Assembly (NCBI GenBank): GCA_022791835.1
Contig: JAAVZW010000027.1
Coordinates: 10,112-74,111, forward strand
Direction: 5' to 3'
DNA length: 64,000 bases
DNA from: Clostridia bacterium
Lineage (GTDB): Bacteria > Bacillota > Clostridia > TANB77 > CAG-508
Shown: positions 12,877-37,183 of the stretch, piece by piece
How the letters are laid out: every line of letters starts with the position of its first letter
Position numbering within the stretch: position 1 is the first letter of the stretch
The notes under the pieces: generated by a model
What the model saw: the letters and a program-made list of their open reading frames with translations, nothing else
Told to the model about the DNA's origin: nothing
Databases searched by the model: none
Made by a program: the position numbers and the translations under genes

Positions 12877-12879
12877 TCA

Positions 12880-13777: not shown

Positions 13778-13795
13778 TTGCTCTATTTCTCCTTT

Positions 13796-16585: not shown

Positions 16586-16586
16586 A

Positions 16587-18661: not shown

Positions 18662-18747
18662 AGCACCTAGCCCTTGTCCGCTTTTTGTCTGTTTTCTCTA
18701 GCTTTTCGTCCGCTTCTGTTGTATCTACGAATATACTTCCGAAAAGT

Positions 18748-19053: not shown

Positions 19054-19070
19054 AAGATATATTATTTCTT

Positions 19071-19412: not shown

Positions 19413-19413
19413 A

Positions 19414-19989: not shown

Positions 19990-20003
19990 TTTATACCTCT
20001 TTT

Positions 20004-20381: not shown

Positions 20382-20396
20382 GCTTGTTCCTCGCTT

Positions 20397-21412: not shown

Positions 21413-21429
21413 TTTTATCCCTCCATTTT

Positions 21430-21801: not shown

Positions 21802-21826
21802 TTCAATTTTCTCCCTTCTATAATTT

Positions 21827-23068: not shown

Positions 23069-23094
23069 GGTTTTTCACCTTTTCCTTTCTTTTT

Positions 23095-23745
23095 TTAATA
23101 TGTTTGTATTAACATCTTTTTACTTCTATCTTTTTGCAATTCGGCTCTTGCCAGCGCCTTCTGTTCTTGTTCCGCCACCGTAAAACGCGAACTCCTTGCA
23201 GTTATAGAAGTTGTATCATAAGCGGGGATGTCCACCGCACTTACGTCAAATAATTTGTCTACTTTGAGTACTCTCCATGTATGTGTTTCTTGATTATAGC
23301 TTTCTTCTTTGATAGTAAAGCAAAAACTCATTCTATCTATATATCCGCCTTTTATTTCTTCGTAGAGTTTTCTACCTTCTTCTGTTCCGTCTAGTCTTGC
23401 CCTTATGTTTAATCCGTTTGCATCTATGTATAGCTCTAGTGTTTTGTTTCTTGTTCTTGCCACTACTTTTCCACCATGATTGTAATTGAATATTACGTCT
23501 GACATGTCCGCTTCTGAGAATGCATTTCTATCAATTACTTCTTTGTATTCAGTACTGCCACATTTGAATAATGTAGTTGGACTTTCGAACGTTACCGCTT
23601 GTCCCTCTACTATCATTTCTTGAATTTGATTGCCTTCCTCGTCTTGTATGCTTTCACTTCTTACTTTTAGATTGTGAAACATTCTGTACATTCTGTCATT
23701 TCTAAGCATTTTTAGTGTTTCTTGCTTTTTTTCTTCTTCGTTCAT
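23095..23745 (-). CDS. prohead protease, HK97 family (S78)
   Basis: 216 aa from internal ATG 23745 (MNEEEKKQ...). ...AVTFESPTTLF...IDRNAFSEA...FNYNHGGKVVARTRNKTLELYIDANGL... Start overlaps the portal stop (ATGA). Confidence 0.75.
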   Translation of the reverse strand: MNEEEKKQETLKMLRNDRMYRMFHNLKVRSESIQDEEGNQIQEMIVEGQAVTFESPTTLFKCGSTEYKEVIDRNAFSEADMSDVIFNYNHGGKVVARTRNKTLELYIDANGLNIRARLDGTEEGRKLYEEIKGGYIDRMSFCFTIKEESYNQETHTWRVLKVDKLFDVSAVDIPAYDTTSITARSSRFTVAEQEQKALARAELQKDRSKKMLIQTY

Positions 23746-24963
23746 TGTACTTCCTCCTCTTTTTCGTTTAATTGATATTCGTCCGCTTTGTCTGCGTTTA
23801 CAAAATTTAGTGACTGTAACCTTCTGTCTCCGCCCTGGAACTGGTGCTCTGTTCCAAATTTCTCTTTGTTCATTTATAGTGAATAGATGTCCCAATTTTT
23901 CACATATTGTTATCTTAGTGCTATTCGATGCATTTGCTAATCTATTTGCTTCTAGTATTATTTCATTGCCGTATCCGATTTCAGTTTGAGTAAATATTTT
24001 TCGTGTAAGTTCTTGGCTCATTTGTATTGCAAACGGTTCTATTGTAGTTTCAAAATATGCCGTCCACTCCTCTTCTGTGTAATTACCTTTTATAATTTTT
24101 TCGTTGGTATTAAAGTACTCATATAGTTCTTGCTTACTATAATCCATTTGAGCTTTGTTCGGTACATATGGCTCTGTTTTCATTTCTTGAAATTCATATC
24201 GCGGGTCTGTATAAGCTATTCCTTTACTATTATTGATATTTAAGTATCTTTCCGAAAAATCGTTTACATTTTTTTCCACATCTCCTGGTTGTAATACATT
24301 TTTAAACTTTAGTATTCCTCGAATAAATGCTGTATTTCGTATTGCATACTTAATTCCTTGTGTTGTATCATTTATTACATCAAATGTAGTCTGTAAAACT
24401 TTTGAATTGCTTGCACCCCAAAAGTCGTTTTCATTATAGTGTTTTCGTATATGTATAACATCTTTGTATGATGCAAATACAGTTTCTCCATTTCTAAATC
24501 TAAATTTTAAATATAATTCTTTGTTTTCGTCTTCGTATACTTCTACGCTCGAGCTGTTTAGCGGATATATTCCCAAAACGCCATTCATTCCTGGTACATT
24601 TTTATCTCTATCAATATACGCAAATGCATTGTTATTTTCTTCCCTTTGTATCATTATTTTTTGTAAGAAATCAAACATTGTCATATATTTGTTCGGTGCT
24701 TTTAATATTCGCTCTATGTTTTGATTTGGCAAGACTTTTATTTCATTGTCTAAAATTCTAATGTGTTTAGGATGTAGTTTTGCTGCGTTTATGCCGTTTG
24801 TTCCGATTGCTGTTCTTGCTATACTGCTGTCATATATTTTCCCATTCCAGTTGTAAAACGCCGAACTACTGTCATTTAGCATTTTGAATTTATTTATTAC
24901 TTTGTACTTCGGTTCCTTACTACCGAATATATTTTCAAGCATACTTCGTAAATTTTTTCTCAC
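23742..24963 (-). CDS. portal protein (HK97 family), apparent frameshift near 23800 fuses it in the track to the protease ORF
   Basis: In the 622-aa track ORF the stretch GRRQKVTVTKFCKRRQSGRISIKRKRGGST is out-of-frame. The alternative frame gives ...QGGDRRLQSLNFVNADKADEYQLNEKEEEVQ* ending at 23742. Indel at the CCAGGG run. Confidence 0.7.
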
Positions 24964-24975
24964 GTTTTGCCTCCT

Positions 24976-26691
24976 TTACTGTATCATGTTTAAATAGTCA
25001 TTTTTCTTTTGTTCTAATATTACATAAGCATCTAATAGTGCCGCCATTCCATCTATACGTAGAGTTGCCTTTCTTCCTTTTTCTGGCTGTATATTCCCGT
25101 TTCTATCTACATCTATATTTGTATTGCTTAAGCACCATTTGTCAATTGGATTATTGTTGTATACTACGATTTTTGACTTTAAGTCTGCTCCTAAGTTTTT
25201 CATTGGTGAAGATAACGTTTTTTTACCTTGATGTACTTCTATCATTGCCTCTTCTCCAAAGTGTCCTTTCATTTCCTCCACCCAATATTCTGCTGACCAT
25301 GCGTCATATCCTATCCACGGAATATATATTCCATATTCGTCCCTGATTTCTAAAAACCATTTTGTGATTTCTTTTGGGTGCACTTTGTTCCCTGGACTAA
25401 GTCGTAAAAGTTCTCTTTCATACCACTTGTCGTACGGGATTTTGTCTTCTTTTATCTTTTTTTCTAGCAACTCTTCGGGTAGCCAATACATTTGTAGTAC
25501 GTATATTTTTATGTCATTTGGCAATTGGAAAATTACTTTTGCTGCGGTTAAGTCCGTTGTGCTTGACAAGTCTGTACCACCGATACCATATTTTACTTTC
25601 ATTTTTGCTAGATTGAATGTTGCCTCGTTGTTAAGTTCTTCGAATGATAACCAGCTTGACGTACTTGTTTCTCTTACATTGAAGTCCTTGCATAGTAGAT
25701 TTTTTAGTTCGTCTGGCTTACGTTTTGCTTTTGCTACTTTATCTTTCAATCCTTTTAATTTTTTGATTGTGCCTAATCCTGGATTTGCTTTCATATAGCA
25801 ACTTTCGTTTGTCCATTCGTCTTTGCTATCAAGTTCATATATGACTGCAAGTAGTGTTTCGTCTATAAAGTCTAGCGAAGGGTCTACATAACTATTAATT
25901 ACATTTGTTGCATACTCGTATTCGCTATCAAATACATTTTCTCTCACTGTTCCCATTGTTGAAGTTTCTAGAAACAATGGCTGGTCTCTTACGTCCATGC
26001 TATCATATGTAACGTCTATCAAGTTTTTGTCTTTCATTGCATGTACTTCGTCTGCTGCTACAAACGAAGCATTTAAACCGTCTAGTGTGTCTGACTCACT
26101 AGATAACGGTTTGAATGTTGCTTCTTCTTCTTCGTAGTAAAGCTCTGCTATTAAAGGTTTCACTCTCTTTAGTAGCACAGGATTTTTCTTTATCATTCTT
26201 TTTGCTTCTGACCAAAGTATTTTTGCCTGGTCCTTTTTAGTTGCAATAGAATAACATTCTGCTCCAGGTTCTCCGTCCATAAGTAGCATATATAAACCGA
26301 TTGCTGCTGCTAGTGTCGATTTTCCGTTTTTTCTTGCCACGAACAAGATTACTTTTCTATATTTTCTAAATCCTGTGTTTGCATCTACAAATCCGAATAT
26401 AGCTGATACAAAAGCTTTTTGCCATAATTCTAATTTGAACGGTTGCCCCGCCCATTTTTTGCCTTTGCTATGTTTACAAAATGTTTCTATGAACTCAATT
26501 GCAAACATTGCTTTTTCTTCGTCAAAGATATATGTATATTCCTCGTATTCTTCTGTATCTTCGTTTTGAATTAAAACTGTTCGAGGATTATCTATGTCTT
26601 TTACCAGTTTTTCATAGACGATTTTTACTTTTCTTGAAGTTATTATTTCTCCACTTTGAATTTTCTCGTAGTATTCTTTTATGTAGTTCAT
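24976..26691 (-). CDS. terL: terminase large subunit
   Basis: 571 aa, Terminase_1-like ATPase + nuclease, adjacent to TerS. Confidence 0.85.
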   Translation of the reverse strand: MNYIKEYYEKIQSGEIITSRKVKIVYEKLVKDIDNPRTVLIQNEDTEEYEEYTYIFDEEKAMFAIEFIETFCKHSKGKKWAGQPFKLELWQKAFVSAIFGFVDANTGFRKYRKVILFVARKNGKSTLAAAIGLYMLLMDGEPGAECYSIATKKDQAKILWSEAKRMIKKNPVLLKRVKPLIAELYYEEEEATFKPLSSESDTLDGLNASFVAADEVHAMKDKNLIDVTYDSMDVRDQPLFLETSTMGTVRENVFDSEYEYATNVINSYVDPSLDFIDETLLAVIYELDSKDEWTNESCYMKANPGLGTIKKLKGLKDKVAKAKRKPDELKNLLCKDFNVRETSTSSWLSFEELNNEATFNLAKMKVKYGIGGTDLSSTTDLTAAKVIFQLPNDIKIYVLQMYWLPEELLEKKIKEDKIPYDKWYERELLRLSPGNKVHPKEITKWFLEIRDEYGIYIPWIGYDAWSAEYWVEEMKGHFGEEAMIEVHQGKKTLSSPMKNLGADLKSKIVVYNNNPIDKWCLSNTNIDVDRNGNIQPEKGRKATLRIDGMAALLDAYVILEQKKNDYLNMIQ

Positions 26692-27053
26692 TGTCTCATT
26701 TTTTCTTTAAACTTAGTAAAATCATCGTCCATTTTTATATCATTTCCTGGCGGTAGACTTTCTGATAATTGCTTTATAGTTGTGTTGTAGCTTTTCATAG
26801 TTGCATTGTACGCTTTTAGCGCGGGTTGTTCTCTTAGAAATTCCTGTTTTCCTTGCTTGAATTTTTCTATTGTTCCTTTTTTTTCTATAATTTCGTTTAA
26901 TTCTTTAAGTTGTGCATACATAAATCCTGCTTGTTCTATCAAGCCTGCCAGTAGAGCTCTCTGATTTTCTTTTGCTCTTTTAAAGATTTGTTCTAATTCA
27001 TTAATTTTCTGTTCTTTTAGCTCTTTTTTCTTCTTATTTGTCAATACTTTCAC
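26688..27053 (-). CDS. terS: terminase small subunit (P27 family)
   Basis: 121 aa, ...GKQEFLREQPALKAYNATMKSYN... resembles P27 family; overlaps terL by 4 nt. Confidence 0.6.
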   Translation of the reverse strand: MKVLTNKKKKELKEQKINELEQIFKRAKENQRALLAGLIEQAGFMYAQLKELNEIIEKKGTIEKFKQGKQEFLREQPALKAYNATMKSYNTTIKQLSESLPPGNDIKMDDDFTKFKEKMRQ

Positions 27054-27054
27054 C

Positions 27055-27140
27055 TACTTTCTTTAGGTTTACCCCCCCTCGTCTATCAGCACTTGTGTAT
27101 TTTTTAGAGCTGCCCCCAACGGTCCTTTATAATAAAATAT
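27055..27140. other. candidate cos/packaging-site region
   Basis: Three G/C runs (CCCCCCC, GCCCCC, GCGGGGGG) in otherwise AT-rich DNA between HNH and terS. The HNH + TerS/TerL arrangement is typical of cos phages. Confidence 0.3.
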
Positions 27141-27144
27141 CTAA

Positions 27145-27456
27145 TTATTTTTGCGGGGGGATATTTTTTATTAAGTTTCCGTCGCTGTCAAACTTCACAT
27201 CTTCTTTCGTGTACTGATTACTTGAGTTGTGTTCTTTATTGTGACAATCCTGACATACATATTCTAAGTTTTCAAAGTTAAGTGTTATGTATGCATTGTC
27301 TATGTTGCTTGGTTCAAGTTCTATTTTATGATGCACGATTTTCCCTGGTCGTTCTTTGCATCTATTGCATGTCTTGTCTGGTAAGCTATCAATAAAAGCT
27401 TGTCTACATTCTAGCCATGCTTTTGATTTATAGAAATTCTTTGCAAATTCTCGCAT
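27145..27456 (-). CDS. HNH endonuclease (terminase-associated)
   Basis: 103 aa, CNRCKE...HHKIE...CQDCHNKEH zinc-finger/HNH pattern immediately upstream of terS. Confidence 0.7.
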   Translation of the reverse strand: MREFAKNFYKSKAWLECRQAFIDSLPDKTCNRCKERPGKIVHHKIELEPSNIDNAYITLNFENLEYVCQDCHNKEHNSSNQYTKEDVKFDSDGNLIKNIPPQK

Positions 27457-27613
27457 CGTTTATCCTTTCTTTGCTTAATAAAAAAGAGCGACAGACATAA
27501 TCGCCTGTGCTCTCCAGCACACCTATTACTAGGATTAAACACATTATACTATTGACATCTTATATCTGTCTATAAAAACGTCCTCGTTTTGTCCTCGTTT
27601 TGTCTAACTTTTT

Positions 27614-28006
27614 TTAGTCGTCTTTCAAATAGCCTAATACTCTAGCAAAAGAACGTATTGCAAAATCTCTTATTTTATAGTATTCATTTTTGTTTTTAAT
27701 TTTTAGAGATTGCATGACTTTCCACCTTGGCTCGTCTTGAAAGTATCTTAGGTCTATTAGTTTTCGTTTTTCCTCGTTAAGTCTTCTATCATATACGCTT
27801 TCTATTGCAATTATTTTCTTTTTGATTTGTTCGTCATATTCTACGCTGCTTTCTACTAATGATTTGAAATCATATGTATTGTAGTCTTTGAATGTTCTAT
27901 TTGTTATACCTAGTCCGCTTGCCTCTATTCTTAGTATCCAGTCTGGATATTTTCGTAAGTCTTTTTCAACATAATGTATTATTTCTTCCGTTAATCCTTC
28001 TAACAT
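27614..28006 (-). CDS. ArpU/RinA-family phage late transcriptional activator
   Basis: 130 aa, ...KKIIAIESVYDRRLNEEKRKLIDLRYFQDE... sigma region-4-like ArpU family. Confidence 0.6.
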   Translation of the reverse strand: MLEGLTEEIIHYVEKDLRKYPDWILRIEASGLGITNRTFKDYNTYDFKSLVESSVEYDEQIKKKIIAIESVYDRRLNEEKRKLIDLRYFQDEPRWKVMQSLKIKNKNEYYKIRDFAIRSFARVLGYLKDD

Positions 28007-28046
28007 TTTTCCCTCCGCTTCTTGTGTTCTTTAGATTATAGAGTGC

Positions 28047-28184
28047 ATAGTTTTATGTTTCTTTAGATAATCTATTGCACTCCAATATTTTAATCCATAT
28101 TGTCCATTTTTTGTTTTTTCTATTTGTGCTATATATTTTTCTGCTTTTTCCTTCGTCCATATTCTAGCCACTTTTATTTCTCCT
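28047..28184 (-). CDS. small hypothetical protein (45 aa, GTG start)
   Basis: RBS GAAAGGAGA then GTG; VARIWTKEKAEKYIAQIEKTKNGQYGLKYWSAIDYLKKHKTMHSII*. Confidence 0.3.
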
Positions 28185-28309
28185 TTCTACTTTTTATCTT
28201 TATCGTCATTACCAAAGTACACACATATTATTATTGTTACACATATTATTATTGTGATTATTACTCCGTCGCTCATGCTTGTCCCTCCTTCCGCTTCTTT
28301 TTTTATTTT

Positions 28310-28728
28310 TTAATATTCTTCTATCTTGACATATATTCGTGGTGTATTAGAGTACTTTTTTTCTACTTGTAGTTTTATTACTTGTGTATCGTCTTTGAAC
28401 ACAAATGTATTCATTGCATCTAATACTATTTTTGTGATATTATCTATGTCGGGTTTTTTCGTCGGACTTATGTTTTCTGATAACATTTCCGCTTCTTTCT
28501 TTTTACTTGTAGATTTTGGGATACTAAAATATGCAATAATCGTTACAGCGATTCTCCCTTCAAACGGTTTAAAATACGGATAATCTCTTATGAACCATTG
28601 TCGCATAGCATATTCATATAGTTTTGTTTTTCCTGGTGTATATGCTCGTCCTGTGTATGTATTCATACGTGGTCTTGCTTTGCCGAACTGGTTCTCCTAA
28701 CATTTCAAATTCATACATAAATTTCCCC
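28310..28728 (-). CDS. rusA: RusA-family Holliday junction resolvase, apparent frameshift near 28690
   Basis: ...KKPDIDNITKIVLDAMNTFVFKDDTQV... (RusA motif). N-terminus MYEFEMLGEPV... is in another frame. Confidence 0.65.
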
Positions 28729-28733
28729 CCTTT

Positions 28734-29021
28734 TTATTCTTCTGGCATTTGATAAACTATATTTTGAATAAGTTTCTCACTAGGTATGAATTCATTTATT
28801 TGTATTCTTGGTATCTTAAGCATTTCCATGTTTCCATACGCTATGAATATTTCTTGTAATATCTCTTTCGCTCTTTTTACTGTTGTGTATTGTCCTAATG
28901 TTCCACTTGAATTTTTAATATAAAATAAGGTTTTCTCACATTTTATATTTTCGTATAATTCTGTTATCCATATTTCAATGTTTTGCGTAATCTTAGTTCT
29001 ATCTTGACTTACTATTAACAT
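28734..29021 (-). CDS. hypothetical protein
   Basis: 95-aa ORF in the early-gene block, no recognisable domain. Confidence 0.4.
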   Translation of the reverse strand: MLIVSQDRTKITQNIEIWITELYENIKCEKTLFYIKNSSGTLGQYTTVKRAKEILQEIFIAYGNMEMLKIPRIQINEFIPSEKLIQNIVYQMPEE

Positions 29022-29368
29022 TTTACTTCCTCCTTGCTATTTCTTCTAGCTTTTAGTTCCTTATATTTGTCTAGCTTATACTCTAATTCTATATTTTCTG
29101 CTATTGCTTTTTTGTATTTAATTTCCAAATCATTGTATTTTTCTTCTTGTCTATGTTTTGTTTGATAAAGTCTTTTCAATTCATTATCTCTTGATTCTAT
29201 TATTTTTTCCTTTCCTTCGTTACTTCTTCTATTATATTCTGCTATATTTATGTATTTATTTACTATTCTTCTTATTTCGCTATATTCTGATACATTTAAT
29301 TTATTTTCAAGTCCTTTTATAAATATTATTTCTTCCTCTGATAATTCTATTTCGTTGTTATTATTCAT
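29015..29368 (-). CDS. hypothetical coiled-coil protein
   Basis: 117 aa, charged/coiled-coil. Confidence 0.4.
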   Translation of the reverse strand: MNNNNEIELSEEEIIFIKGLENKLNVSEYSEIRRIVNKYINIAEYNRRSNEGKEKIIESRDNELKRLYQTKHRQEEKYNDLEIKYKKAIAENIELEYKLDKYKELKARRNSKEEVKC

Positions 29369-29369
29369 T

Positions 29370-29630
29370 TTATACCTTCTTTCTAAAATCTATATCTTCT
29401 AAGCTTTCTTCTTTTCCTGTTCTAATGTAATTTATTACATCAACTAAAGCATTTCTTTTTACTAGTAAAATGTCCAAATGCTTTTCGTCAAATATTTTAT
29501 ATTTTCCACTGCTTTTATATTGACTGCTTTTTTTATATTCTTCTTTTAGTCCGTTTCTTTCTAAGTCAATAGCTTTTACTAATTCTATTAGAATATTATC
29601 TAATTCTTCTATATCTGTTTTATCGTTCAT
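29370..29630 (-). CDS. hypothetical protein
   Basis: 86 aa. Confidence 0.4.
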   Translation of the reverse strand: MNDKTDIEELDNILIELVKAIDLERNGLKEEYKKSSQYKSSGKYKIFDEKHLDILLVKRNALVDVINYIRTGKEESLEDIDFRKKV

Positions 29631-29649
29631 TTTGTACCTCCAAAAATTT

Positions 29650-29961
29650 CTAATATTTCAAGTACATAATACTCTTTTCCGCTTCTCTGCTCCCCATTCC
29701 GGCTTGCCTTGTCCGTATCCTTAGCTTGCATTTGCATATCATGCTTGGAGAAGTCTTAGAGTAGCCATTTCTAAATACTACTTCTTTTTCTGTTGTAGTC
29801 ATTTTTCTTAATACTTTCTTTGTATTGCTATCTATTATGTGATTTATGAAATAATTTCCTAATCTTTTAGTCCAATATGATTTTATTTCTCTATATTCTT
29901 CTTTCTTTTCTCCGCTTCGTATCATATCAAACCATTTGCGTTTAATCGGTAATACTAACAT
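29650..29961 (-). CDS. ASCH-domain-like protein
   Basis: MLVLPIKRKWFDMIRSGEKKEEYREIK... matches the ASCH N-terminal pattern. Confidence 0.4.
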   Translation of the reverse strand: MLVLPIKRKWFDMIRSGEKKEEYREIKSYWTKRLGNYFINHIIDSNTKKVLRKMTTTEKEVVFRNGYSKTSPSMICKCKLRIRTRQAGMGSREAEKSIMYLKY

Positions 29962-30254
29962 TGTTTTTTCTCGCTTTCTTCTAATAATTTTGAATTACTT
30001 TGTTGTAACAAATCTTGTACACATAGATGAGTTAATGTTTGAGTAAAATCAAGATTGTTCATGTTTTCGCTTGTCAAACGATTATGTATTACTGTTCCTG
30101 CCTTTAAGAATCCTATAAAAAACTGTGTTAGATTTTCTCCCTCTCCTAGTTCTTCAAACTCTATATGTTCATATTCTTGTTCTTCTTCATTGTGAAATAA
30201 ATTCATTATACTTGATATAATATTCTTTGTATATTCTTCATTTTTTCTTTTCAT
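29955..30254 (-). CDS. hypothetical protein
   Basis: 99 aa. Confidence 0.4.
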   Translation of the reverse strand: MKRKNEEYTKNIISSIMNLFHNEEEQEYEHIEFEELGEGENLTQFFIGFLKAGTVIHNRLTSENMNNLDFTQTLTHLCVQDLLQQSNSKLLEESEKKQC

Positions 30255-30267
30255 ATTTTTCTCCTTT

Positions 30268-30961
30268 TCAAATTATAAATTCTCGTATAAATCTATTAGC
30301 ATATTCTTTTGATATTAAACTACGCTCAGCTCCAGGGTTCGTATGTCCTATCTCTTTTCTCTCGTTCCAGACTTGAGCTTCTAGTATCATATTTTGACTT
30401 GGCTTTCTATTTATGAACCAATACTGTGTTGGTTTCTTATAGTAATCTCCTTTCATACTTCTGTCTGTATCAATTATGCTTGCTTGAATGGACCAGTACT
30501 TTACTAGATAATGTGTTGAACTGTAAGGATTCTCTATTATCAAAGCTATCTTCCTTCTAATACACACTATTGCTAGTTTTGTAACTAATTCGTAGAGCTC
30601 ATGTAGCTCTTTATGTAGTTTTAAATCATATTTTAGCTTTTGTTCATCGGTCCAATTCTTTTGGCTTGCACATGTTCCGCCTAAAGAAAAGCTGTATTTG
30701 ATTTTCGAACCTCACACAAGGGAAAAAAGCTAATATTGTATCTTCACTTTTGATATTGTTAAATATACTCTTCTCATTACTATATGCTTTTTCTATTTCA
30801 GCAAACAAATCTATTATGTAATCTGTTTCGTTAAACTCATCTTTAATATCGTAATCATACGCTTCATATCCAAGTTTTCTAAACTCATTCTTGAATGTTC
30901 CTGACTGTTCAAATAAACAATGATATGTCATTTCTTCTCTCCTATTTCCTTTTCTACACAC
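30268..30961 (-). CDS. DNA methyltransferase (Dcm-like motif I), apparent frameshift near 30600
   Basis: N-terminal part CLFEQSGTFKNEFRKLGYEA (motif I-like, LFxGxGG...GF), ...AFFPCVRFENQ. C-terminal part ...ALIIENPYSS... in an adjacent frame (track ORFs 30644..30961 + 30268..30567). Confidence 0.4.
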
Positions 30962-31129
30962 TTTAGTGCTGTTTTTAAGCTATCATATGCTCTTTTATTG
31001 TCTTCATCGTTTAAATCACAGCCTTCTAGTATATATTGAATTCTTTCTTCTATCCACTTTTTTGTGTCTTCTAAATTTTGCATTACCCTTCCCCCTATAC
31101 TTTTTTCATAAATTTTACTTGATACTTTG

Positions 31130-31363
31130 TCATGCCGTTGTTTCTATGCAACTATTATCTCTTGTTTTGATATATTTGTTTTTCCTTCCCATTTTTTTAT
31201 ACTGTTTTAGTTCCGCTTCTTCTATCTGATTTGTGTGTTTTATTCCTAATTCGTAGTAGTTAAAAGATAATCTAATACCCGTTTGCTCGTCTTCGAACAA
31301 TACATGATTTGTATATTTTTTTATTAGTTTCATTTGTCTACCGTGCCAAGTTGGTATTTGCAT
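31130..31363 (-). CDS. hypothetical protein (77 aa from the internal ATG)
   Basis: RBS GGAGGAG before MQIPTWHGRQ.... The upstream portion of the 122-aa track ORF overlaps the sigma-factor gene in another frame. Confidence 0.35.
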   Translation of the reverse strand: MQIPTWHGRQMKLIKKYTNHVLFEDEQTGIRLSFNYYELGIKHTNQIEEAELKQYKKMGRKNKYIKTRDNSCIETTA

Positions 31364-31365
31364 AG

Positions 31366-31905
31366 CTACTCCTCCTTGTTTTTTAATATAAAATACTTTA
31401 TTTTGTTTTCTATTCTTATTTTCTTTCTGCTTATTACAGCTTGTGTACATTTTAATTGTTTTGCTATTTGTATTTGTGTATATCCATTTTGGATCCACTT
31501 TACAATTTTCCTTTCCTGCTTATTTAGATTTTTAATTATACTTTCAATGCCATTTTTTGAGATTATATAGTCTTCTAAGTTGAAATCACTTGCTATTATA
31601 TCTTCTAGAGTTGACCCATTTTCTATTGTTTCAGCTTGTAATGACATTGTTTTCAATTTTAAGAATCTTTTTTGCTTTCTTAACTGTTGCAATATTTCAT
31701 TATTCATACATCTACATGCATATGTAGAAATAGTGCTTTTATCTCGATTATATGTTTTGCATGCCTTCCATAAAGCAAATTGACATATCTGTACTAAGTC
31801 CTCAAATTCAATACCACACATTCTATATTTATTTGCAATAACATATGATAATCGTATATTCTCATTAAACAGCTTCTCTGCATTGTTTTCTTTTGTTTGT
31901 TCCAT
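31366..31905 (-). CDS. sigma-70-family RNA polymerase sigma factor (phage-encoded)
   Basis: 179 aa, region 2 (...FEDLVQICQFALWKACKTYNRDKSTISTYA...) and region 4 HTH (...IQIAKQLKCTQAVISRKKIRIENKI...). Confidence 0.65.
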   Translation of the reverse strand: MEQTKENNAEKLFNENIRLSYVIANKYRMCGIEFEDLVQICQFALWKACKTYNRDKSTISTYACRCMNNEILQQLRKQKRFLKLKTMSLQAETIENGSTLEDIIASDFNLEDYIISKNGIESIIKNLNKQERKIVKWIQNGYTQIQIAKQLKCTQAVISRKKIRIENKIKYFILKNKEE

Positions 31906-31920
31906 GCTGCTGCCTCCTAT

Positions 31921-32075
31921 TTATTTTCTTTTTTCTGCCATGTTTTGCATTTTATGAACATGCCTGTGTGTTCGTCTGTTAATGAACATATGTACGGAAA
32001 GTCTTTAGATTGAGTATTACAATGTTCGCAAGTACTACAATTTTCATGTGCATTTAGTGTGTATTTACTTTTCAT
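31921..32075 (-). CDS. small Cys-rich zinc-ribbon protein (51 aa)
   Basis: MKSKYTLNAHENCSTCEHCNTQSKDFPYICSLTDEHTGMFIKCKTW.... The ATG overlaps the stop of the upstream gene (ATGA). Confidence 0.35.
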
Positions 32076-32805
32076 TTCTTAGCACCTCTTCCGCTTCGTA
32101 TTCTAAACTTTTAATGAAATAATTCAGAACGTCTAATACTGTGTAGTTTGCTTTTACAGCTACATATTTATTTGTATTGTGATATATTTGCAAGACTCTG
32201 TTTCTTGTTGCCTTGTCTAAATATGCTCTGTTTGAGCTAAAGTATATTTCTTTTATTGCATAGCACAATATTTTAAAGTCTTCTAAGCTCTTGCTGTTTT
32301 GTATGTAGTGTAACTCGTTTTTTGGCACATAGAACTCTAATCTTTTTAATATTGCTACTAGATGCGTCTTATCTGCAATCGCTATGTTTTCAAATTCGTC
32401 GCCTTCATTGTTTGATATATAATTAAAGAAATTATTTATTTTTATTATAATGTGTTCGACTGCCTGCTCGTTTGGTTGTTCGTCCGCTTGTTCATGTGCT
32501 TGTTCGTCCGCTTGTTCATTGTATAGTTTGACTATTGAATATTTAGAAGCATCGTTTTGATTTTTTCCTTTTTTGTAGATAATATAGTCATTGTCTATTA
32601 ACTCTTTTCTTGCTCTTTGTAGAGTGGAAATCGACAAATTAACTATCTTGCTCATGAAAACACTATTTGCTACTCTAAACTCACTAAGCCATCCCGTTAT
32701 TTTTGCAATGTTTAATAAAATTAGATACATTGCTATTGCAAACGCAGATACACGCTTATAGTCTAATGTAGAATAGAACGCACAGAGCTGTTTTTCGTAG
32801 TTCAT
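32065..32805 (-). CDS. putative phage replication initiation / replisome-organiser protein (DnaD-like N-terminal wHTH)
   Basis: 246 aa, N-terminal wHTH-like region, internal low-complexity (EQADEQAHEQADEQPNEQA) encoded by a 24-nt tandem repeat. Confidence 0.4.
   Translation of the reverse strand: MNYEKQLCAFYSTLDYKRVSAFAIAMYLILLNIAKITGWLSEFRVANSVFMSKIVNLSISTLQRARKELIDNDYIIYKKGKNQNDASKYSIVKLYNEQADEQAHEQADEQPNEQAVEHIIIKINNFFNYISNNEGDEFENIAIADKTHLVAILKRLEFYVPKNELHYIQNSKSLEDFKILCYAIKEIYFSSNRAYLDKATRNRVLQIYHNTNKYVAVKANYTVLDVLNYFIKSLEYEAEEVLRNEK
32476..32520. repeat. ~2 copies of a 24-nt tandem repeat (ttgttcgtccgcttgttcatgtgc) inside the replication gene
   Basis: Direct reading of 32470-32522. 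Confidence 0.6.
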
Positions 32806-32827
32806 TCTTTTGTTTCCTCCGCTTCTT

Positions 32828-33193
32828 TTATATTTTTGCTATCTTTTCGACTTTTGCACATGCTAAAGCTAAAAACAAACTGTTTGTTATTTTATGCTTT
32901 GTATTAAAATATGTTTGTACATCTATTGATGTAGAAAGAACTGCCGTTCTTAAAGCTCTTTCTACTTGTGAATATGACACATTGTGCTTTATTGCTAATA
33001 CATTATAGACATCTTTCATAGCGTAAAGTTCACATTTGATTTTTTCTGCAACTACATATGTAATTGCTTCTGTCCATAGTTGAAAACCTTTTAAGTCTTT
33101 TTTCATGTCTACATCTTCTAATACTTTTCTTACTGCATCTTTAATAATCAAGCCTTGTGTTTTGTTCTTTACAAATTCTTTTGACTTCTCCAT
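32828..33193 (-). CDS. Spo0A C-terminal (DNA-binding) domain homologue, stand-alone
   Basis: KGFQLWTEAI...VYNVLAIKHNVSYSQVERALRTAV...ITNSLFLALA aligns with Spo0A_C KGYLYLREAI...[24 protein letters not shown]...PTNSEFIAMVA. Confidence 0.6.
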   Translation of the reverse strand: MEKSKEFVKNKTQGLIIKDAVRKVLEDVDMKKDLKGFQLWTEAITYVVAEKIKCELYAMKDVYNVLAIKHNVSYSQVERALRTAVLSTSIDVQTYFNTKHKITNSLFLALACAKVEKIAKI

Positions 33194-33270
33194 TTTCTTT
33201 TCCTCCGTTATTGATTTTTTGTGATTATTGTGTTAGAATAAAAATGTGATGTTTGTTCAATCACTATGAA

Positions 33271-33717
33271 CTAGATGTGTTTTCGAGATTTGTCTAGTTC
33301 ATTTTTTATTATGAATTGTGTAGATGTTTTAGATATAGCTTTTGTTAATTCGTTAATTCTTTGTTGTTTTTCTTCTTCTGAAATATTCCAATCACTCAAC
33401 ACTCTAATATCATGCGTATATGATAATATTGTGCTTGCAAAATCAAATACTTCTCTTTTTAATATAAAATTGTCTATTGTTTTTGAATTATACTTTGAAT
33501 ATGTTATAGCTCTGCGTGCTTTTTCCGCTTCTAACTGTGTACGTAATTTGCATACTTTTGCAAACAACTTCACATTTGTTTTTGCTAATTTCATTACTGT
33601 CCAAGATTCTTTTTCTTTGCTATTCAAATTATTGTTTCTTCTGCTTTCGTCACTTGCTATAATAATTAGATATAGAACTATTGATAATATTACAAATATT
33701 GTAATTGCTGTTCCCAT
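33271..33717 (-). CDS. hypothetical membrane-anchored protein
   Basis: 148 aa, N-terminal TM (ITIFVILSIVLYLIIIA). Confidence 0.4.
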   Translation of the reverse strand: MGTAITIFVILSIVLYLIIIASDESRRNNNLNSKEKESWTVMKLAKTNVKLFAKVCKLRTQLEAEKARRAITYSKYNSKTIDNFILKREVFDFASTILSYTHDIRVLSDWNISEEEKQQRINELTKAISKTSTQFIIKNELDKSRKHI

Positions 33718-33808
33718 AGTTTCTTTCTCCTTTCTTTTCTTTAGATTTTGTATTTTAATATTAAAAATATTAATGATAATTTAATTTTTAATTCTACAAT
33801 TATTTTCT

Positions 33809-34057
33809 TCATTTGCTTTCCTCTAATGCTATTTTTAATTTTTCTATAACATCGTTCAAACTGTTTCTGTGAATTTCTTGATGTAAAGCAATATATTCTG
33901 CATTTACTCTATCGCTCCATCCATTTTCATAATAACGAACATTAAAAACATTGCAATGTGGATAATAATCAAAGAATGCATCTGCTTTTGTTCTAGTTGA
34001 TATTTCATAGCATAATCCTGCCACTTTTTCAAATAATTCTTTTAGTGTTTCTTCCAT
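33809..34057 (-). CDS. hypothetical protein
   Basis: 82 aa. Confidence 0.4.
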   Translation of the reverse strand: MEETLKELFEKVAGLCYEISTRTKADAFFDYYPHCNVFNVRYYENGWSDRVNAEYIALHQEIHRNSLNDVIEKLKIALEESK

Positions 34058-34227
34058 TATTTTTTGCCCCCTTTCTTTTTATTTTCGCTCCAGTATTGCT
34101 TACTTGTATGATAAAACATTAGTAGACCATACGAGCTATAAAGTACTGCTTGATATATGTTTATACCTTTCGCTTCAAACTGTATAAAAATTATAAATAT
34201 GAATATTAAACTAATTAAGCACAACAT
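34057..34227 (-). CDS. small hydrophobic membrane peptide (56 aa)
   Basis: MLCLISLIFIFIIFIQFEAKG... from the internal ATG 34227 with RBS GGGAGAGG. The 78-aa track ORF upstream part belongs to the HTH gene in another frame. Confidence 0.3.
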   Translation of the reverse strand: MLCLISLIFIFIIFIQFEAKGINIYQAVLYSSYGLLMFYHTSKQYWSENKKKGGKK

Positions 34228-34462
34228 TTTTGACCTCTCCCCTTTCTTTTTGCATATTCGTAAACTTCTTCGGGAAATAGCTCGTAATTCCATTTATTGC
34301 CGATTACTTTTTATTGCTACCCCGAAATTCTAGCCTCTTTTGTTTTAATCCGTTTCGAACAAACTGCGGGCTCCTTCCTATTATTTTCGCCGCTTCTGTA
34401 ACTGTCATTTTTTTAGCCTCTTTAATTTCTTGTGTCGTGTCGCCTTTTTTTAAAATTTCCAT
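34215..34462 (-). CDS. HTH_17/Xis-like DNA-binding protein, 2 apparent frameshifts at G and A homopolymers
   Basis: MEILKKGDTTQEIKEAKKMTVTEAAKIIGRSPQFVRNGLKQKRLEFG / VAIK / VIGNKWNYELFPEEVYEYAKRKGRGQKCCA assembled from three frames. Confidence 0.45.
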
Positions 34463-34475
34463 TTTTTGTCTCCTT

Positions 34476-34683
34476 TTAATTTGTAATTATATTTTTCAAA
34501 AAAGTATTTGCATCTACGTTAAGTGCTACTACTATTGCTTCAAATTCTTCTACTGGTAATTTTCGCTTTTCATTAAAAGATGCATTTAGTTTTGGAATTG
34601 GTATACCGTGTTTTTACTGATAATTCTGTTTGAGTAATATTATTTTGAATTAAAAACATTTTAATTCTTTTGCATATTGACAT
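34476..34683 (-). CDS. cro: Cro-like XRE-family HTH repressor, apparent frameshift at an A-run
   Basis: MSICKRIKMFLIQNNITQTELSVKT / GIPIPKLNASFNEKRKLPVEEFEAIVVALNVDANTFLKNIITN*. Divergent from the cI-like gene. Confidence 0.5.
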
Positions 34684-34710
34684 GTATTTTTCCTCCTTTC
34701 TTTTTTAAAA

Positions 34711-34800
34711 TTCAAATTTTCTTTGAATTTGTGTTTATTATATTCAAATTTTTTTTGAATGTCAATGCTTTTTTTATAAAAAATTCAAAAAATTTTTGAA
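34711..34800. promoter_or_regulatory. genetic-switch region with three TTCAAA-N6/7/5-TTTGAA operator palindromes
   Basis: 34711-34728, 34744-34759, 34784-34800, between divergent cro-like and cI-like genes. Confidence 0.55.
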
Positions 34801-34841
34801 TTTTAATATTTACTTTTCAAAAAAAATGTGGTATTCTAAGA

Positions 34842-35243
34842 ATGGAGGGTAATTCTATGTTTCTAAATAAAAAAATTAAACAAGCTCGTCTTGAGAAAAA
34901 ACTTACTCAAAAGGAATTTGCTAATTTACTTACTAAAAATGGTTATAAAACAAGTCATGCTACTGTTTCTAATTGGGAATTGAATATCAGTAGCCCAGAC
35001 GTAGATACATTACAAATGATTTGCAATATTCTTGAAAAAGACGGCAATTATTTTTTTGATTTTACTAATACTACTTTAAACAAACAAGAAATACAAAATT
35101 ATTATGGTAGTTATTCAATAGAATTATTAGAAAATTATTCTTTGCTAAATGACCTAGGGAGGCTGAAAGCAATCGAAAATGTAAAGGATTTAACAAAAAT
35201 TAATGAATACACTGAAACAAAAAACAAACAACAAATCATATAG
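34842..35243 (+). CDS. cI-like XRE-family HTH repressor
   Basis: 133 aa, KIKQARLEKKLTQKEFANLL...HATVSNWE HTH_XRE. Divergent to cro. Start may be the ATG at 34857. Confidence 0.65.
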   Translation: MEGNSMFLNKKIKQARLEKKLTQKEFANLLTKNGYKTSHATVSNWELNISSPDVDTLQMICNILEKDGNYFFDFTNTTLNKQEIQNYYGSYSIELLENYSLLNDLGRLKAIENVKDLTKINEYTETKNKQQII

Positions 35244-35324
35244 GCAAAATTATCCATTATGATTTTACCAAAAAACAGATATTAAGTGAAGAATAGTGTA
35301 AAAAAATAAATAGGAGGCACTTAG

Positions 35325-35783
35325 ATGCAAAATTTTATTATGAATAAAAAATATATATTAATACATATTTTTCTAGCAATTATTACATATGGCATATGGT
35401 TAATTATATTTATATATCTTAAGATTAAATATTCAAAAAATAATGCATTGACTAATGATACTATAGCATGGATTTTAAATGTATCAGGAGTAACATTCAA
35501 AAACGAAGATGGTTCACACAGACAAAAACTTATTTCTAATTTGCATTATAATCAAGAACTTTGTCTTGAGCCATATAAATATGAGAATAAAGACGCTATA
35601 TTTGTAAAAACATTAAACAATGAAATTCTTGGTAACATCTCTTCTAAAAACATTTTGGATGTTTCCAATAAAATTTTACAAAATAAAATTATAAAAGTAA
35701 CTGTTGCAGAAGCAAGTTCATTTTTAGGCGAAGAAAATGAGAAAATATATTATCTAAAGATTAAATTATTAATAAAAAAATAA
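35325..35783 (+). CDS. hypothetical membrane protein between repressor and integrase (superinfection-exclusion candidate)
   Basis: 152 aa, one N-terminal TM (YILIHIFLAIITYGIWLIIFIYL), own terminator downstream. Confidence 0.4.
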   Translation: MQNFIMNKKYILIHIFLAIITYGIWLIIFIYLKIKYSKNNALTNDTIAWILNVSGVTFKNEDGSHRQKLISNLHYNQELCLEPYKYENKDAIFVKTLNNEILGNISSKNILDVSNKILQNKIIKVTVAEASSFLGEENEKIYYLKIKLLIKK

Positions 35784-35828
35784 AACAAAAAAACGGATAA
35801 TGTGTTGTAATTTAGCGACACGACACAT

Positions 35829-35865
35829 TACCCGAGGCGTGAACACTTTGAAAAGTGTTTACATT
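35829..35865 (+). terminator. hairpin terminator GTGAACACTTT-gaa-AAGTGTTTAC + T-rich
   Basis: Perfect inverted repeat followed by attttgtatt. Confidence 0.45.
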
Positions 35866-35937
35866 TTGTATTATATACAAAATGCTTTCATTTTTCAAGT
35901 GTTTTCAAAAAATATTTGAAAAATGGGGGCATTTTAT

Positions 35938-37183
35938 ATGATTAAGAAAAAAAGAAAATATAAATATGGTAGTGTGGTGTATCTGGGAGAAAACCGTTCT
36001 CAACCATATATGGCTAGAGTAACACTTCGGATATAACAAAGGTGGTTATCCCGTCTATTTTTCATTAGGCTATTTTGAAGAAGAACTTGATGCATACATA
36101 TGCTTAAGAGACTTTAATAACAAACTATATGATTTGTATGTAAAAAAACAAGTATATGACAAAATAGACGTGTTCTCTACTTTGCCAGTTAAACTTTTTG
36201 TATCTGACGTCAAGCGAAAATACGAAGACGTTTCAACATACACATTCAAGCAAGTATATGAAGAATGGAAAAAAGTATATTTCCCCACAAAAGAAGAAAT
36301 CGAGGAGGAAAAAAGAACTCACAGGCGAACCCATGGCAAATTTTCTGTTGCAAATAAGGGCAATCTCGCTTCTGCTTTTAGCAATTGCAAGATTCTTCAT
36401 GATAGAATATACAGAGACTTAACTGACTTAGATTTTCAAGAAGTTATAAACAATACAAAACGGTTGTCGCAGTAAGCTCTACAATATACAAAATTTGTGT
36501 AAAAAACTAGATAAGTTTGCTTTGAGAAAAAAGATTATAGAAGAAGATTATGCAAAATTCATTGAGATTGACATTCAAGAAGACGAAACACATAGAAAGC
36601 CTTACACTTATGACGAAATCGCGTTCTTGTGGACCCTAAAAGGCAATATTTTAGTTGATATATTACTAGTGCTACTATATTCACGGCTTTAGAATAGAAG
36701 AATTGCTAGAGCTTGAAATAGTCAATATAGACTTAGAAAACGGAACAATGCTCGGAGGTCTTAAGACTGATAGCGGTAAGCATAGAATAGTACCTATTCA
36801 TTCTATGATACTGCACATTATACTACGATATTATGACAAAAAGAATAAGTATCTATTCACTGACAAGAACGGAAACAAAATCAAATACGATAAGTATTAT
36901 CAAGATTTTCTAAAATTCAAAAAAGAAAACAAAGAAAACTTTGATATTACACATGTTATTCACGAAACCAGGCATTCTGTTTGCTCTGATTTAGATAAAT
37001 ACGGAGCAAATAAGAAGTGTAGAGATATGATACTACGGACACAAAAGCAAAGAAGTTGGCGATAGAGTCTATAATCACAAAACAATAGAAGATTTAAAAA
37101 TTACTATTGAATTAATTACATATAAAGATACAAAAATTGTAAAATTCGATACACAAAAAACAGCTCTTGAAAAGTCTTCTTAG
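35938..37183 (+). CDS. int: tyrosine recombinase (phage integrase), fragmented by at least 4 apparent frameshifts
   Basis: Pieces: MIKKKRKYKYGSVVYLGENRSQPYMARVTL..., ...TFKQVYEEWKK..., ...LVDILLVLLYS/GFRIEELLELEIVNIDLENGTMLGGLKTDSGKHRIVPIH...HETRHS...ILGHKS...VGDRVYNHKTIEDL (R..HxxR..Y catalytic set), stop 37181-37183. Confidence 0.7.

What the first reader, a model, noticed from the sequence alone, without database searches (positions are those of the whole stretch)
32828..33193. Prophage encodes a stand-alone Spo0A C-terminal DNA-binding domain homologue
The 121-aa product aligns across the whole Spo0A effector domain (KGF/Y, EAI, VERAxRxA, TNSxFxA blocks) but has no receiver domain, so it could occupy 0A boxes independently of phosphorylation. 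It sits in the early region, together with a phage sigma factor (31366-31905) and an ArpU activator. A phage-borne constitutive Spo0A DNA-binding domain could manipulate host sporulation or solventogenesis decisions to the prophage's benefit.
Basis: partly seen in the sequence, partly recalled or inferred. Interest (0 to 1): 0.65.

Follow-up and report, generated by a model that had tools for sequence, protein, structure and literature searches.

The report
Phage-borne receiver-less Spo0A DNA-binding domain

Summary
ORF 32828-33193 (-) encodes a 121-aa protein that passes Pfam Spo0A_C (40.8 bits, cut-off 25). Its predicted fold matches only the Spo0A effector-domain crystal structures. It has no receiver domain and keeps the three recognition-helix residues (E213/R214/R217, B. 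subtilis numbering).

It lies in the repressor-controlled early lytic operon of a ~27-kb siphovirus-type prophage, just upstream of the replication initiator and a phage sigma factor.

It belongs to a large, old family of stand-alone ~100-130-aa Spo0A_C proteins. Six of seven sampled contexts are phage DNA. The family shares two loop deletions and has lost the residues Spo0A uses to activate transcription.

The idea is not new. Schwartz et al. 2023 (mBio) reported effector-only spo0A homologs in gut phages with the same interpretation, UniProt already names such viral proteins, and a 2025 review lists them as "not validated".

The prophage carries no consensus 0A boxes. An apparent TGNCGAA excess is a codon artefact.

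Best reading (moderate confidence): a phosphorylation-independent occupant of 0A-box-like sites that acts as a competitor or repressor rather than a Spo0A-like activator during lytic growth. A phage-internal role, with its sigma factor or its origin, is not excluded. Whether the host sporulates was not determined.

The parts
32828..33193 (-). Stand-alone Spo0A_C (Spo0A effector/DNA-binding domain) gene, 121 aa
   Evidence: ORF; Pfam PF08769 40.8 bits; PDB 1LQ1/1FC3 by sequence and by fold; recognition-helix residues E78/R79/R82 = Bsu E213/R214/R217
33202..33206 (-). Ribosome-binding site GGAGG, 8 nt upstream of the ATG
   Evidence: Read directly from the sequence
34737..34765 (-). Perfect sigma-70-type promoter (TTGACA-17-TATAAT) of the early lytic operon, in the divergent region facing the repressor gene
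   Evidence: 12/12 consensus match; no terminator-like site between it and 31000. Function inferred.
34842..35243 (+). XRE/CI-type repressor, transcribed divergently from the early operon
   Evidence: HTH_3 E 1.3e-9; phrog_3 transcriptional repressor E 9e-14
34304..34462 (-). First early gene, small HTH_17 protein (Cro/excisionase-like)
   Evidence: HTH_17 E 8e-4, below cut-off; phrog_6058
32065..32805 (-). DnaD-like replication initiator, immediately downstream of the Spo0A_C gene; carries a 12-nt x 3.5 coding repeat at 32476-32517
   Evidence: phrog_19658 replication initiation protein E 6e-14, phrog_186 DnaD-like; homologs downstream of Spo0A_C in L001 (56% id) and L008 (41%); repeat
31366..31905 (-). 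Phage sigma-70-family factor in the same operon
   Evidence: Sigma70_r2 E 8.5e-15; phrog_351 E 3e-30; best NCBIfam partial matches to SigK/SigE/SigF, all far below cut-offs
27614..28006 (-). RinA/ArpU-type late transcriptional activator upstream of the packaging genes
   Evidence: phrog_248 E 2e-12; RinA family 20.7 bits, below cut-off
10058..37081 (.). The prophage as a whole: endolysin, tape measure, major head, portal-protease, large terminase, late activator, RusA, sigma, initiator, Spo0A_C, repressor, integrase remnant
   Evidence: PHROG/Pfam hits. Flanked by host OmpR-type two-component genes on the left and by cas3 on the right.
36065..37081 (+). Tyrosine-integrase pseudogene (frameshifted)
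   Evidence: tblastn against the intact L001 integrase gives 4 pieces in 3 frames; the same sequence is present in the separate run L002, 100% identical over window 30278-40668

Best explanation
The gene encodes a receiver-less paralog of the Spo0A effector domain. It belongs to an old family that, in the contexts sampled, is mostly phage-borne.

Shown: it has the six-helix Spo0A_C fold with an intact helix-turn-helix, and it keeps the three recognition-helix residues that (from my memory of the 1LQ1 complex) read the 0A box. It sits in the early operon that starts at a consensus promoter next to the CI-type repressor gene.

Inferred: it is therefore made on induction or infection, not in the lysogen. 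Because it has no receiver domain, it can bind 0A-box-like DNA (TGNCGAA) without phosphorylation, as isolated Spo0A DNA-binding domains do in vitro. The residues Spo0A uses to activate RNA polymerase (the helix-E sigma-A-activating region and A257) are not conserved, and two surface loops are deleted. The most likely action is therefore to occupy Spo0A sites as a competitor or repressor. That would uncouple the host's Spo0A-controlled stationary-phase and sporulation programme (and possibly Spo0A control of replication origins) from its normal signals while the phage replicates.

The stated confidence is for this mechanism. Confidence in the identity (phage early-gene, Spo0A_C-fold DNA-binding protein) is about 0.95.
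For: Identity.

Recognition residues: E78/R79/R82 align with Bsu E213/R214/R217. Across 125 stand-alone family representatives these are E in 118, R in 104 (plus K in 12) and R in 119.

Activation surface not conserved: 224-228 and 240-244 are deleted in about 120 of 125. In the window protein S231 is D, S233 is Q and A257 is C. Only F236 is kept.

Early-operon placement: 12/12 promoter at 34765-34737 with no terminator-like sites after it. The same slot next to an XRE or S24 repressor is used in L001, L008, L090 and L092.

Family context: 6 of 7 sampled contexts are phage DNA. Six UniProt viral proteins share the fold. At least one host is a spore-former (cotJA/cotJB beside the L008 prophage).

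No consensus 0A box in the prophage, which is compatible with targets elsewhere.

Isolated Spo0A DNA-binding domains bind legitimate targets without phosphorylation (PMC3485338).

The same reading was proposed for 29 virome sequences (PMC10294663).
Against: There is no binding or phenotype data for any member; a 2025 review lists phage spo0A as 'Not validated'.

It was not determined whether the host of this prophage has spo0A or sporulates. Its nearest genome representatives are uncultured gut Clostridia MAGs.

The family is far from any host Spo0A (real Spo0A proteins appear only at E about 5e-6, against 1e-21 to 1e-10 for stand-alone members), so its DNA specificity may have drifted.

The recognition-helix neighbour H218 is T here, and Y/T/H across the family.

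The most consistent neighbours are phage replication genes, and twice a phage sigma factor, which fits a phage-internal role equally well.

The roles assigned to E213/R214/R217, 227-240 and A257 come from my memory of the primary literature (Zhao et al. 2002; Hatt and Youngman 1998; Buckner et al. 1998; Perego et al. 1991). I could not re-read those papers here.
Confidence: 0.4

Rival explanations
1. Phage-internal regulator. The Spo0A_C-fold protein acts on the phage's own DNA. It could be a transcription factor working with the phage-encoded sigma factor on middle or late promoters, or an accessory protein at the phage replication origin. On this view it has nothing to do with host sporulation; the fold is simply an HTH scaffold that phages have kept.
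For: A replication-initiator homolog lies directly downstream of the Spo0A_C gene in the window, L001, L008 and L090, and SSB is adjacent in L008 and L092. A Sigma70_r2 gene overlaps the Spo0A_C stop codon in L092 and lies two genes downstream in the window. The family is ancient and distinct from host Spo0A. Helix E is conserved within the family (I-x-x-Y-F-N) but differs from Spo0A, as expected if it contacts a different partner. The adjacent initiator gene carries three xGxCGAA heptamers at 24-bp spacing in a 12-nt repeat, and L001 has two.
Against: There is no consensus TGTCGAA box in the prophage, L001 or L008. The initiator genes of L008 and L090 have no GNCGAA at all. The repeat encodes a conserved acidic (EQAx)n linker, which explains it without any binding site. 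Sigma linkage holds in only 2 of 7 contexts. The phage already has a dedicated late activator. Being upstream of replication genes is simply where miscellaneous early genes sit in temperate siphoviruses.
Confidence: 0.3
2. Constitutive Spo0A mimic that activates. The protein switches on Spo0A-dependent promoters without phosphorylation and pushes the infected cell into sporulation, for example so that the phage genome is carried into the spore.
For: An isolated Spo0A C-domain is active without phosphorylation (PMC3485338; Ireton 1993 and Grimsley 1994 as cited in PMC10294663). The DNA-recognition residues are conserved. The operon also carries a sigma factor whose best partial matches are sporulation sigmas SigK/E/F. 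Phage sigF/sigG homologs do alter sporulation (cited).
Against: [quoted passage not shown] From memory, substitutions at these positions in B. subtilis abolish activation but not DNA binding or repression. The gene is in the lytic early operon, where driving a slow developmental programme is hard to reconcile with lysis. The phage sigma scores far below every sporulation-sigma cut-off.
Confidence: 0.15
3. Functionless relic. The prophage is grounded (its integrase is a pseudogene) and the gene is decaying cargo.
For: The integrase is frameshifted in three places, and the same sequence is seen in a separate run.
Against: The ORF is intact and has a strong RBS. It is 100% or 99.98% identical on contigs from four samples. 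A 54%-identical homolog occupies the same slot in another phage that has an intact integrase. The functional residues are held nearly invariant across 125 family representatives. All structural and lysis genes look intact.
Confidence: 0.05

Closest known systems
Phage-carried truncated spo0A homologs (Schwartz et al. 2023, mBio, 'Human-Gut Phages Harbor Sporulation Genes', PMC10294663)
   Same: Effector (DNA-binding) domain only, no receiver domain, encoded on gut phage genomes of Firmicutes. The same hypothesis was proposed: signal-independent control of sporulation initiation. [quoted passage not shown] PF08769 was reported as enriched in gut Firmicutes mobile elements (10.1101/214213).
   Different: This particular protein is annotated only as 'hypothetical protein'. 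It belongs to a rare subfamily: one relative at 54% identity, none in IMG/VR, in GTDB representatives or among deposited phages. Details added here that I did not find in the parts of that paper I read: the operon position, loss of the activation residues and two loops, and linkage to the initiator and sigma genes. I could not compare directly with their 29 sequences because none are in the supplements.
Spo0A, the sporulation master response regulator (B. subtilis, C. difficile; structures 1FC3, 1LQ1)
   Same: Same six-helix effector-domain fold (TM 0.59-0.78). Same recognition-helix motif S-x-V-E-R-A-x-R, and the conserved G172, Y198, F236 and T248-N249.
   Different: No receiver domain or phosphorylation site. 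24-28% identity. Loops 224-228 and 240-244 are deleted. The sigma-A-activating residues and A257 are not conserved. L176 is W across the family. A 20-residue N-terminal helical extension is present in this subfamily. It is encoded in a phage early operon rather than at the chromosomal spo0A locus.
Use of host Spo0A by phages phi29 and Nf (0A boxes on the phage genome repress early promoters and replication; PMC2731898)
   Same: A link between phage development and Spo0A-type DNA binding, including at replication origins.
   Different: There the phage carries the binding sites and the host supplies the protein. Here the phage carries the protein and has no consensus sites.
Phage-encoded sporulation-like sigma factors (sigF/sigG homologs that lower spore yield when expressed in B. 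subtilis; cited in PMC10294663)
   Same: Phage early-region transcription regulators homologous to sporulation regulators. One sigma-70-family gene shares the operon here, and another overlaps the Spo0A_C gene in L092.
   Different: A different protein family. Those have experimental support and the Spo0A_C proteins have none.

Membership tests
Pfam PF08769 Spo0A_C (Spo0A effector domain superfamily) | Profile score at or above the curated gathering threshold, over most of the domain | tested here: met
   40.8 bits against 25, profile positions 1-102 of 104
Pfam PF08769 Spo0A_C (Spo0A effector domain superfamily) | Six-helix fold with an embedded helix-turn-helix, as in 1FC3/1LQ1 | tested here: met
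   AF2 model with pLDDT 86.3 and six helices. The only significant PDB matches are 1FC3/1LQ1 chains, TM 0.59-0.78.
Pfam PF08769 Spo0A_C (Spo0A effector domain superfamily) | Recognition-helix residues that contact the 0A box (E213, R214, R217 in B. subtilis; residue roles recalled from Zhao et al. 2002) | tested here: met
   E78, R79 and R82 align with them and are nearly invariant in 125 stand-alone relatives
Pfam PF08769 Spo0A_C (Spo0A effector domain superfamily) | Sequence-specific binding to TGNCGAA | not testable with these tools
   Needs EMSA or DAP-seq
Bona fide Spo0A (NCBIfam TIGR02875 equivalog) | N-terminal receiver domain with the phospho-acceptor aspartate | tested here: not met
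   121 aa in total. The match covers model positions 144-253 of 262 only. No Response_reg hit in this ORF or the upstream ORF.
Bona fide Spo0A (NCBIfam TIGR02875 equivalog) | Equivalog score cut-off (200 bits) | tested here: not met
   31.5 bits
Bona fide Spo0A (NCBIfam TIGR02875 equivalog) | Sigma-A-activating region in helix E (about 227-240) and A257, needed for transcription activation (roles recalled from the literature) | tested here: not met
   G227 deleted, S231 is D, S233 is Q, the V240 region is deleted, A257 is C; F236 is kept
Phage-carried effector-only spo0A homologs (Schwartz et al. 2023) | Spo0A effector domain without a receiver domain | tested here: met
Phage-carried effector-only spo0A homologs (Schwartz et al. 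2023) | Encoded within a phage or prophage genome | tested here: met
   Inside a prophage with terminase, portal, head, tape measure, endolysin, repressor and integrase remnant. 6 of 7 family contexts are phage DNA.
Phage-carried effector-only spo0A homologs (Schwartz et al. 2023) | Host is an endospore-former | tested here: inconclusive
   The host is an uncultured gut Clostridia lineage. No sporulation-specific gene was found in the host flanks that were annotated. The host of relative L008 has cotJA/cotJB.
Anti-phage defence systems (PADLOC) | Match to a known defence-protein model | tested here: not met
   No hit for the Spo0A_C protein at E <= 0.01

The most novel reading that the evidence does not exclude
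The stand-alone Spo0A_C family may not be a sporulation hijacker at all. It could be a phage-intrinsic DNA-binding module that co-operates with the phage's own sigma factor or replication initiator, for example as an origin-binding or middle-gene factor. Alternatively it could shut down the host chromosomal origin through 0A-like boxes, so that the replication machinery is handed to the phage. Either way, 'spo0A' calls in viromes, and the use of spo0A as a sporulation marker in MAGs, would be partly misleading.
Probability: 0.3. Interest if true: 0.6.

Novelty: new member of a known kind. Interest (0 to 1): 0.35.

Why it matters
If these proteins do bind 0A boxes without phosphorylation, phages of gut Clostridia would have a one-gene handle on the decision that controls spore formation. 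That decision affects the persistence and transmission of many gut Firmicutes.

This example is a well-defined candidate for the first experimental test. It is a small intact gene, its operon context is clear, its DNA-reading residues are conserved and its activation residues are lost. Together these predict a specific outcome: repression or competition, not activation.

There is also a practical caveat. Phage-borne Spo0A_C genes can be picked up by KEGG or Pfam-based 'spo0A' screens, and some studies use spo0A presence to infer sporulation potential in MAGs (for example PMC11536998).

Tried and rejected
1. 0A boxes on the phage. TGTCGAA occurs 3 times in the window (3.35 expected) and never in the prophage. 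TGNCGAA looked enriched (25 against 12.6), but every coding-strand TGACGAA is in one frame, xxT-GAC-GAA = Asp-Glu. The cause is avoidance of GATGA (8 observed, 22.9 expected), not selection of GACGA (63 against 54.8). Other Spo0A_C phages do not share it. Rejected as a binding-site signal.

2. The 12-nt repeat in the initiator gene, with three xGxCGAA at 24-bp spacing. It encodes a conserved (EQAx)n linker that is also present in L001. The initiator genes of L008 and L090 have no such boxes. Not pursued further.

3. Close relatives in IMG/VR and in GTDB species representatives: none found. A broader alignment was too diverse for the locus finder.

4. Deposited phages (INPHARED). The window protein gives no hit. 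A typical family member and Bsu Spo0A-C hit only unannotated fecal 'Bacteriophage sp.' contigs. Twelve of the 14 are at least 50% identical to Bsu Spo0A-C (up to 73%), so they look like host-type spo0A.

5. Alignment-based word searches returned only 10-13 proteins each, so the context survey rests on seven loci.

6. Defence-system role: no PADLOC hit.

7. An explicit list of DNA-contact residues could not be found in the searchable literature. The residue roles rest on my memory of Zhao et al. 2002.

8. Host sporulation capacity could not be determined. Only about 37 kb of host DNA is in hand, and the literature search on the presumed lineage was uninformative.

9. The sequences of the 29 virome homologs in Schwartz et al. 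are not in the supplements held here.

Full report
**1.

The minus-strand ORF 32828..33193 encodes 121 aa, starts at ATG and has GGAGG 8 nt upstream.
- It passes Pfam Spo0A_C (PF08769) at 40.8 bits against a gathering score of 25 (E 2.4e-10), covering profile positions 1-102 of 104.
- The full-length Spo0A equivalog model TIGR02875 matches only through its C-terminal part (positions 144-253 of 262), at 31.5 bits against a cut-off of 200. There is no receiver domain, and the ORF upstream is not one either.
- phmmer against PDB finds the Spo0A effector domains 1LQ1 and 1FC3.
- An AlphaFold2 model built on a 10-sequence alignment is confident (pLDDT 86.3, pTM 0.79) and has six helices.
- Foldseek against PDB returns the seven 1FC3/1LQ1 chains (TM 0.59-0.78, rmsd 2.4-4.4 A, probability 1.00) and then nothing better than E 0.28.

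**2. Genomic setting**

The gene lies in a prophage of about 27 kb (roughly 10.06-37.08 kb). The recognisable genes, in order, are:
- endolysin, tape measure, major head protein, a portal-protease fusion and large terminase;
- a RinA/ArpU-type late activator and RusA;
- a sigma-70-family factor (31366-31905) and a DnaD-like replication initiator (32065-32805);
- the Spo0A_C gene, then small early genes;
- a divergent XRE/CI-type repressor (34842-35243) and a tyrosine integrase.

The integrase is frameshifted into four pieces in three frames. The same sequence occurs in a separate sequencing run.

A 12/12 consensus promoter (TTGACA-17-TATAAT, 34765-34737, minus strand) sits in the divergent region and points into the operon that carries the Spo0A_C gene. 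No terminator-like site follows it down to 31000. I infer that the gene is an early lytic gene under repressor control. It is not a lysogeny-expressed moron.

The host flanks are ordinary low-GC Firmicutes chromosome: RicT/YaaT, HolB, a two-component pair, a polysaccharide locus and a type I cas operon. The nearest genome representatives are uncultured gut Clostridia MAGs (79% RicT identity to a rabbit-gut MAG, 66% to Clostridium sp. CAG:440). Whether this host sporulates could not be established.

**3. The family**

An exhaustive HMMER search of 1.84 billion representatives found 349 proteins at E <= 1e-3.
- About 125 of the best 150 are stand-alone proteins of 89-146 aa.
- A minority are 235-849 aa with 2-6 tandem Spo0A_C copies.
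- True Spo0A proteins (258-271 aa, with a receiver domain) appear only around E 5e-6.

So this is not a recent capture of a host gene. It is a member of an old, separate subfamily.

Aligned to B. subtilis Spo0A, 125 stand-alone representatives show the following:
- The recognition-helix residues are kept: E213 in 118, R214 in 104 (K in 12 more), R217 in 119. G172, Y198, F236 and N249 are also kept.
- Loops 224-228 and 240-244 are missing in about 120 of 125.
- W replaces L176 in 102.
- The positions that matter for transcription activation in Spo0A are not conserved. These are the sigma-A-activating region of helix E (G227, S231, S233, V240) and A257. In the window protein they are deleted, D, Q, deleted and C respectively.

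The functional roles of these residues are from my memory of the primary literature. The searchable papers say only that such contacts were defined structurally and are conserved in C. difficile.

**4. Contexts elsewhere**

The exact protein occurs on contigs from four samples at 99.98-100% DNA identity.

Across seven independent contexts, six are phage DNA:
- **L001:** a 54% homolog sits in the same slot of another temperate phage, with an intact integrase, an XRE repressor and a divergent early operon.
- **L090:** same layout, with a DnaD/DnaB_2 initiator and DnaB helicase downstream.
- **L008:** a prophage beside cotJA/cotJB, with the order cro, LysM, a small ORF, Spo0A_C, SSB.
- **L092:** SSB, then Spo0A_C, then an overlapping Sigma70_r2 gene.
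- **L006:** a 39-kb phage contig.
- **L091:** chromosomal, next to serine-recombinase fragments.

Homologs of the window's initiator follow the Spo0A_C gene in L001 (56% identity) and L008 (41%). [quoted passage not shown]

**5. Are there binding sites on the phage?**

No consensus TGTCGAA lies in the prophage, L001 or L008.

The relaxed TGNCGAA looked enriched (25 against 12.6), but all coding-strand hits are xxT-GAC-GAA, that is Asp-Glu. This led to a side observation. Prophage genes encode Asp before GAA as GAC 30 times out of 31, against 50% elsewhere (p = 5e-8). Host genes do not show this.
- The effect is specific to Asp.
- It reflects avoidance of GATGA (8 observed, 22.9 expected), not selection for GACGA (63 against 54.8).
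- It is absent from the other Spo0A_C phages.

It is therefore unrelated to Spo0A_C.

A 12-nt coding repeat in the initiator gene yields three xGxCGAA heptamers at 24-bp spacing. It encodes a conserved (EQAx)n linker that is also in L001, and the initiators of L008 and L090 have no such boxes.

**6. Mechanism**

Shown: the fold, the intact HTH with conserved base-reading residues, the absence of a receiver domain, early-operon placement, and mostly phage-borne family contexts.

Inferred: the protein binds 0A-box-like DNA without phosphorylation, as isolated Spo0A DNA-binding domains do (PMC3485338). Because the activation surfaces are gone, it more likely blocks or represses at such sites than activates. 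During lytic growth this would cut the host's Spo0A-dependent stationary-phase and sporulation programme off from its signals. I put this at about 0.4.

The rivals are:
- A phage-internal role with the phage sigma factor or replication origin, about 0.3. It is supported by gene linkage and weakened by the lack of sites on the phage and by the sigma link holding in only 2 of 7 contexts.
- A constitutive activator of sporulation, about 0.15. It is contradicted by the lost activation residues and the lytic-operon position.
- A decaying relic, about 0.05. It is contradicted by the conservation.

**7. Comparison with what is known, and novelty**

Schwartz et al. [quoted passage not shown] An earlier gut mobile-element survey found PF08769 enriched in Firmicutes mobile elements. 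A November 2025 review lists phage spo0A as 'Not validated'.

What this analysis adds:
- The DNA-reading residues are kept while the activation residues and two loops are lost across the family.
- The gene sits in the repressor-controlled early operon next to the replication initiator, and sometimes next to a sigma factor.
- The phage itself carries no 0A boxes.

**8. Verdict**

The feature is real and correctly recognised. It is biologically interesting but already described, and its function is untested. Interest 0.35.

Noticed in passing
window 10058-34462 (prophage genes, minus strand): Asp followed by GAA is encoded as GAC-GAA 30 times and GAT-GAA once (GAC is 50% elsewhere; Fisher p = 5e-8). 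Host genes in the window show 17:16. The cause is avoidance of GATGA on the coding strand (8 observed, 22.9 expected, z = -3.1). GATTC (3 against 15.4) and GAATC (8 against 20.6), i.e. GAWTC, and CTATAG (0 against 9.1) are also depleted. This may be avoidance of restriction or other nuclease sites. Related Spo0A_C phages do not share it.
   Followed up: partly
window 36065-37081 (+): The prophage's tyrosine integrase is a pseudogene, split into four homologous pieces in three reading frames. The same sequence is present in a separate sequencing run (L002). The prophage may be unable to excise even though its structural genes look intact.
   Followed up: partly
window 37467-43804 (-): A type I cas operon (cas6, cas8b-like with a CXXC_CXXC domain, cas7/DevR, a probable cas5, cas3) ends directly at the degraded integrase. 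The window contains no cas1/cas2/cas4 genes and no CRISPR array, so the prophage sits where the adaptation module and array would normally follow.
   Followed up: no
window 32455-32517 (-), inside the initiator gene 32065-32805; also L001 4750-4830: A 12-nt x 3.5 coding repeat, (GAACAAGCNNNN)n = (E-Q-A-x)n, is conserved in the 56%-identical initiator of L001. In the window it gives GGACGAA, GGACGAA and AGTCGAA at exactly 24-bp spacing. It could be origin iterons inside the initiator gene, or just an acidic linker.
   Followed up: partly
P0011 (416 aa), P0012 (849 aa) and about 20 other proteins: Some proteins consist of 2-6 tandem Spo0A_C domains with no receiver domain. In P0011 the third copy is very Spo0A-like and keeps both loops. 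I did not look for any description of this architecture.
   Followed up: no
L092 9001-9856: In a 71-kb phage contig the Spo0A_C gene (151 aa) overlaps by 20 nt the start of a Sigma70_r2 gene (139 aa) and directly follows SSB. This suggests translational coupling of a Spo0A-like protein and a phage sigma factor.
   Followed up: partly
L008 43-2330: A prophage with a large serine recombinase lies immediately after cotJA, cotJB and a 70-aa Mn_catalase (cotJC) fragment. It may be an intervening element that interrupts a spore-coat gene, like skin or SPbeta.
   Followed up: no
INPHARED records MT835504.1, MT835781.1, MT836727.1 and others (H12-H25): Fourteen unannotated 'Bacteriophage sp.' contigs from human faeces encode Spo0A C-domains. 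Twelve are at least 50% identical to B. subtilis Spo0A-C (up to 73%), much closer to host Spo0A than the stand-alone family is. They may be bacterial fragments in a virome set, or phages with recently acquired spo0A. I did not check whether a receiver domain is attached.
   Followed up: no
window 9678-9714 and 9860-10035: A perfect (TG)18.5 microsatellite and a pair of 35-nt direct repeats 141 nt apart (83% identical) lie just outside the endolysin end of the prophage, possibly near the attachment site. No attL/attR pair was identified.
   Followed up: no
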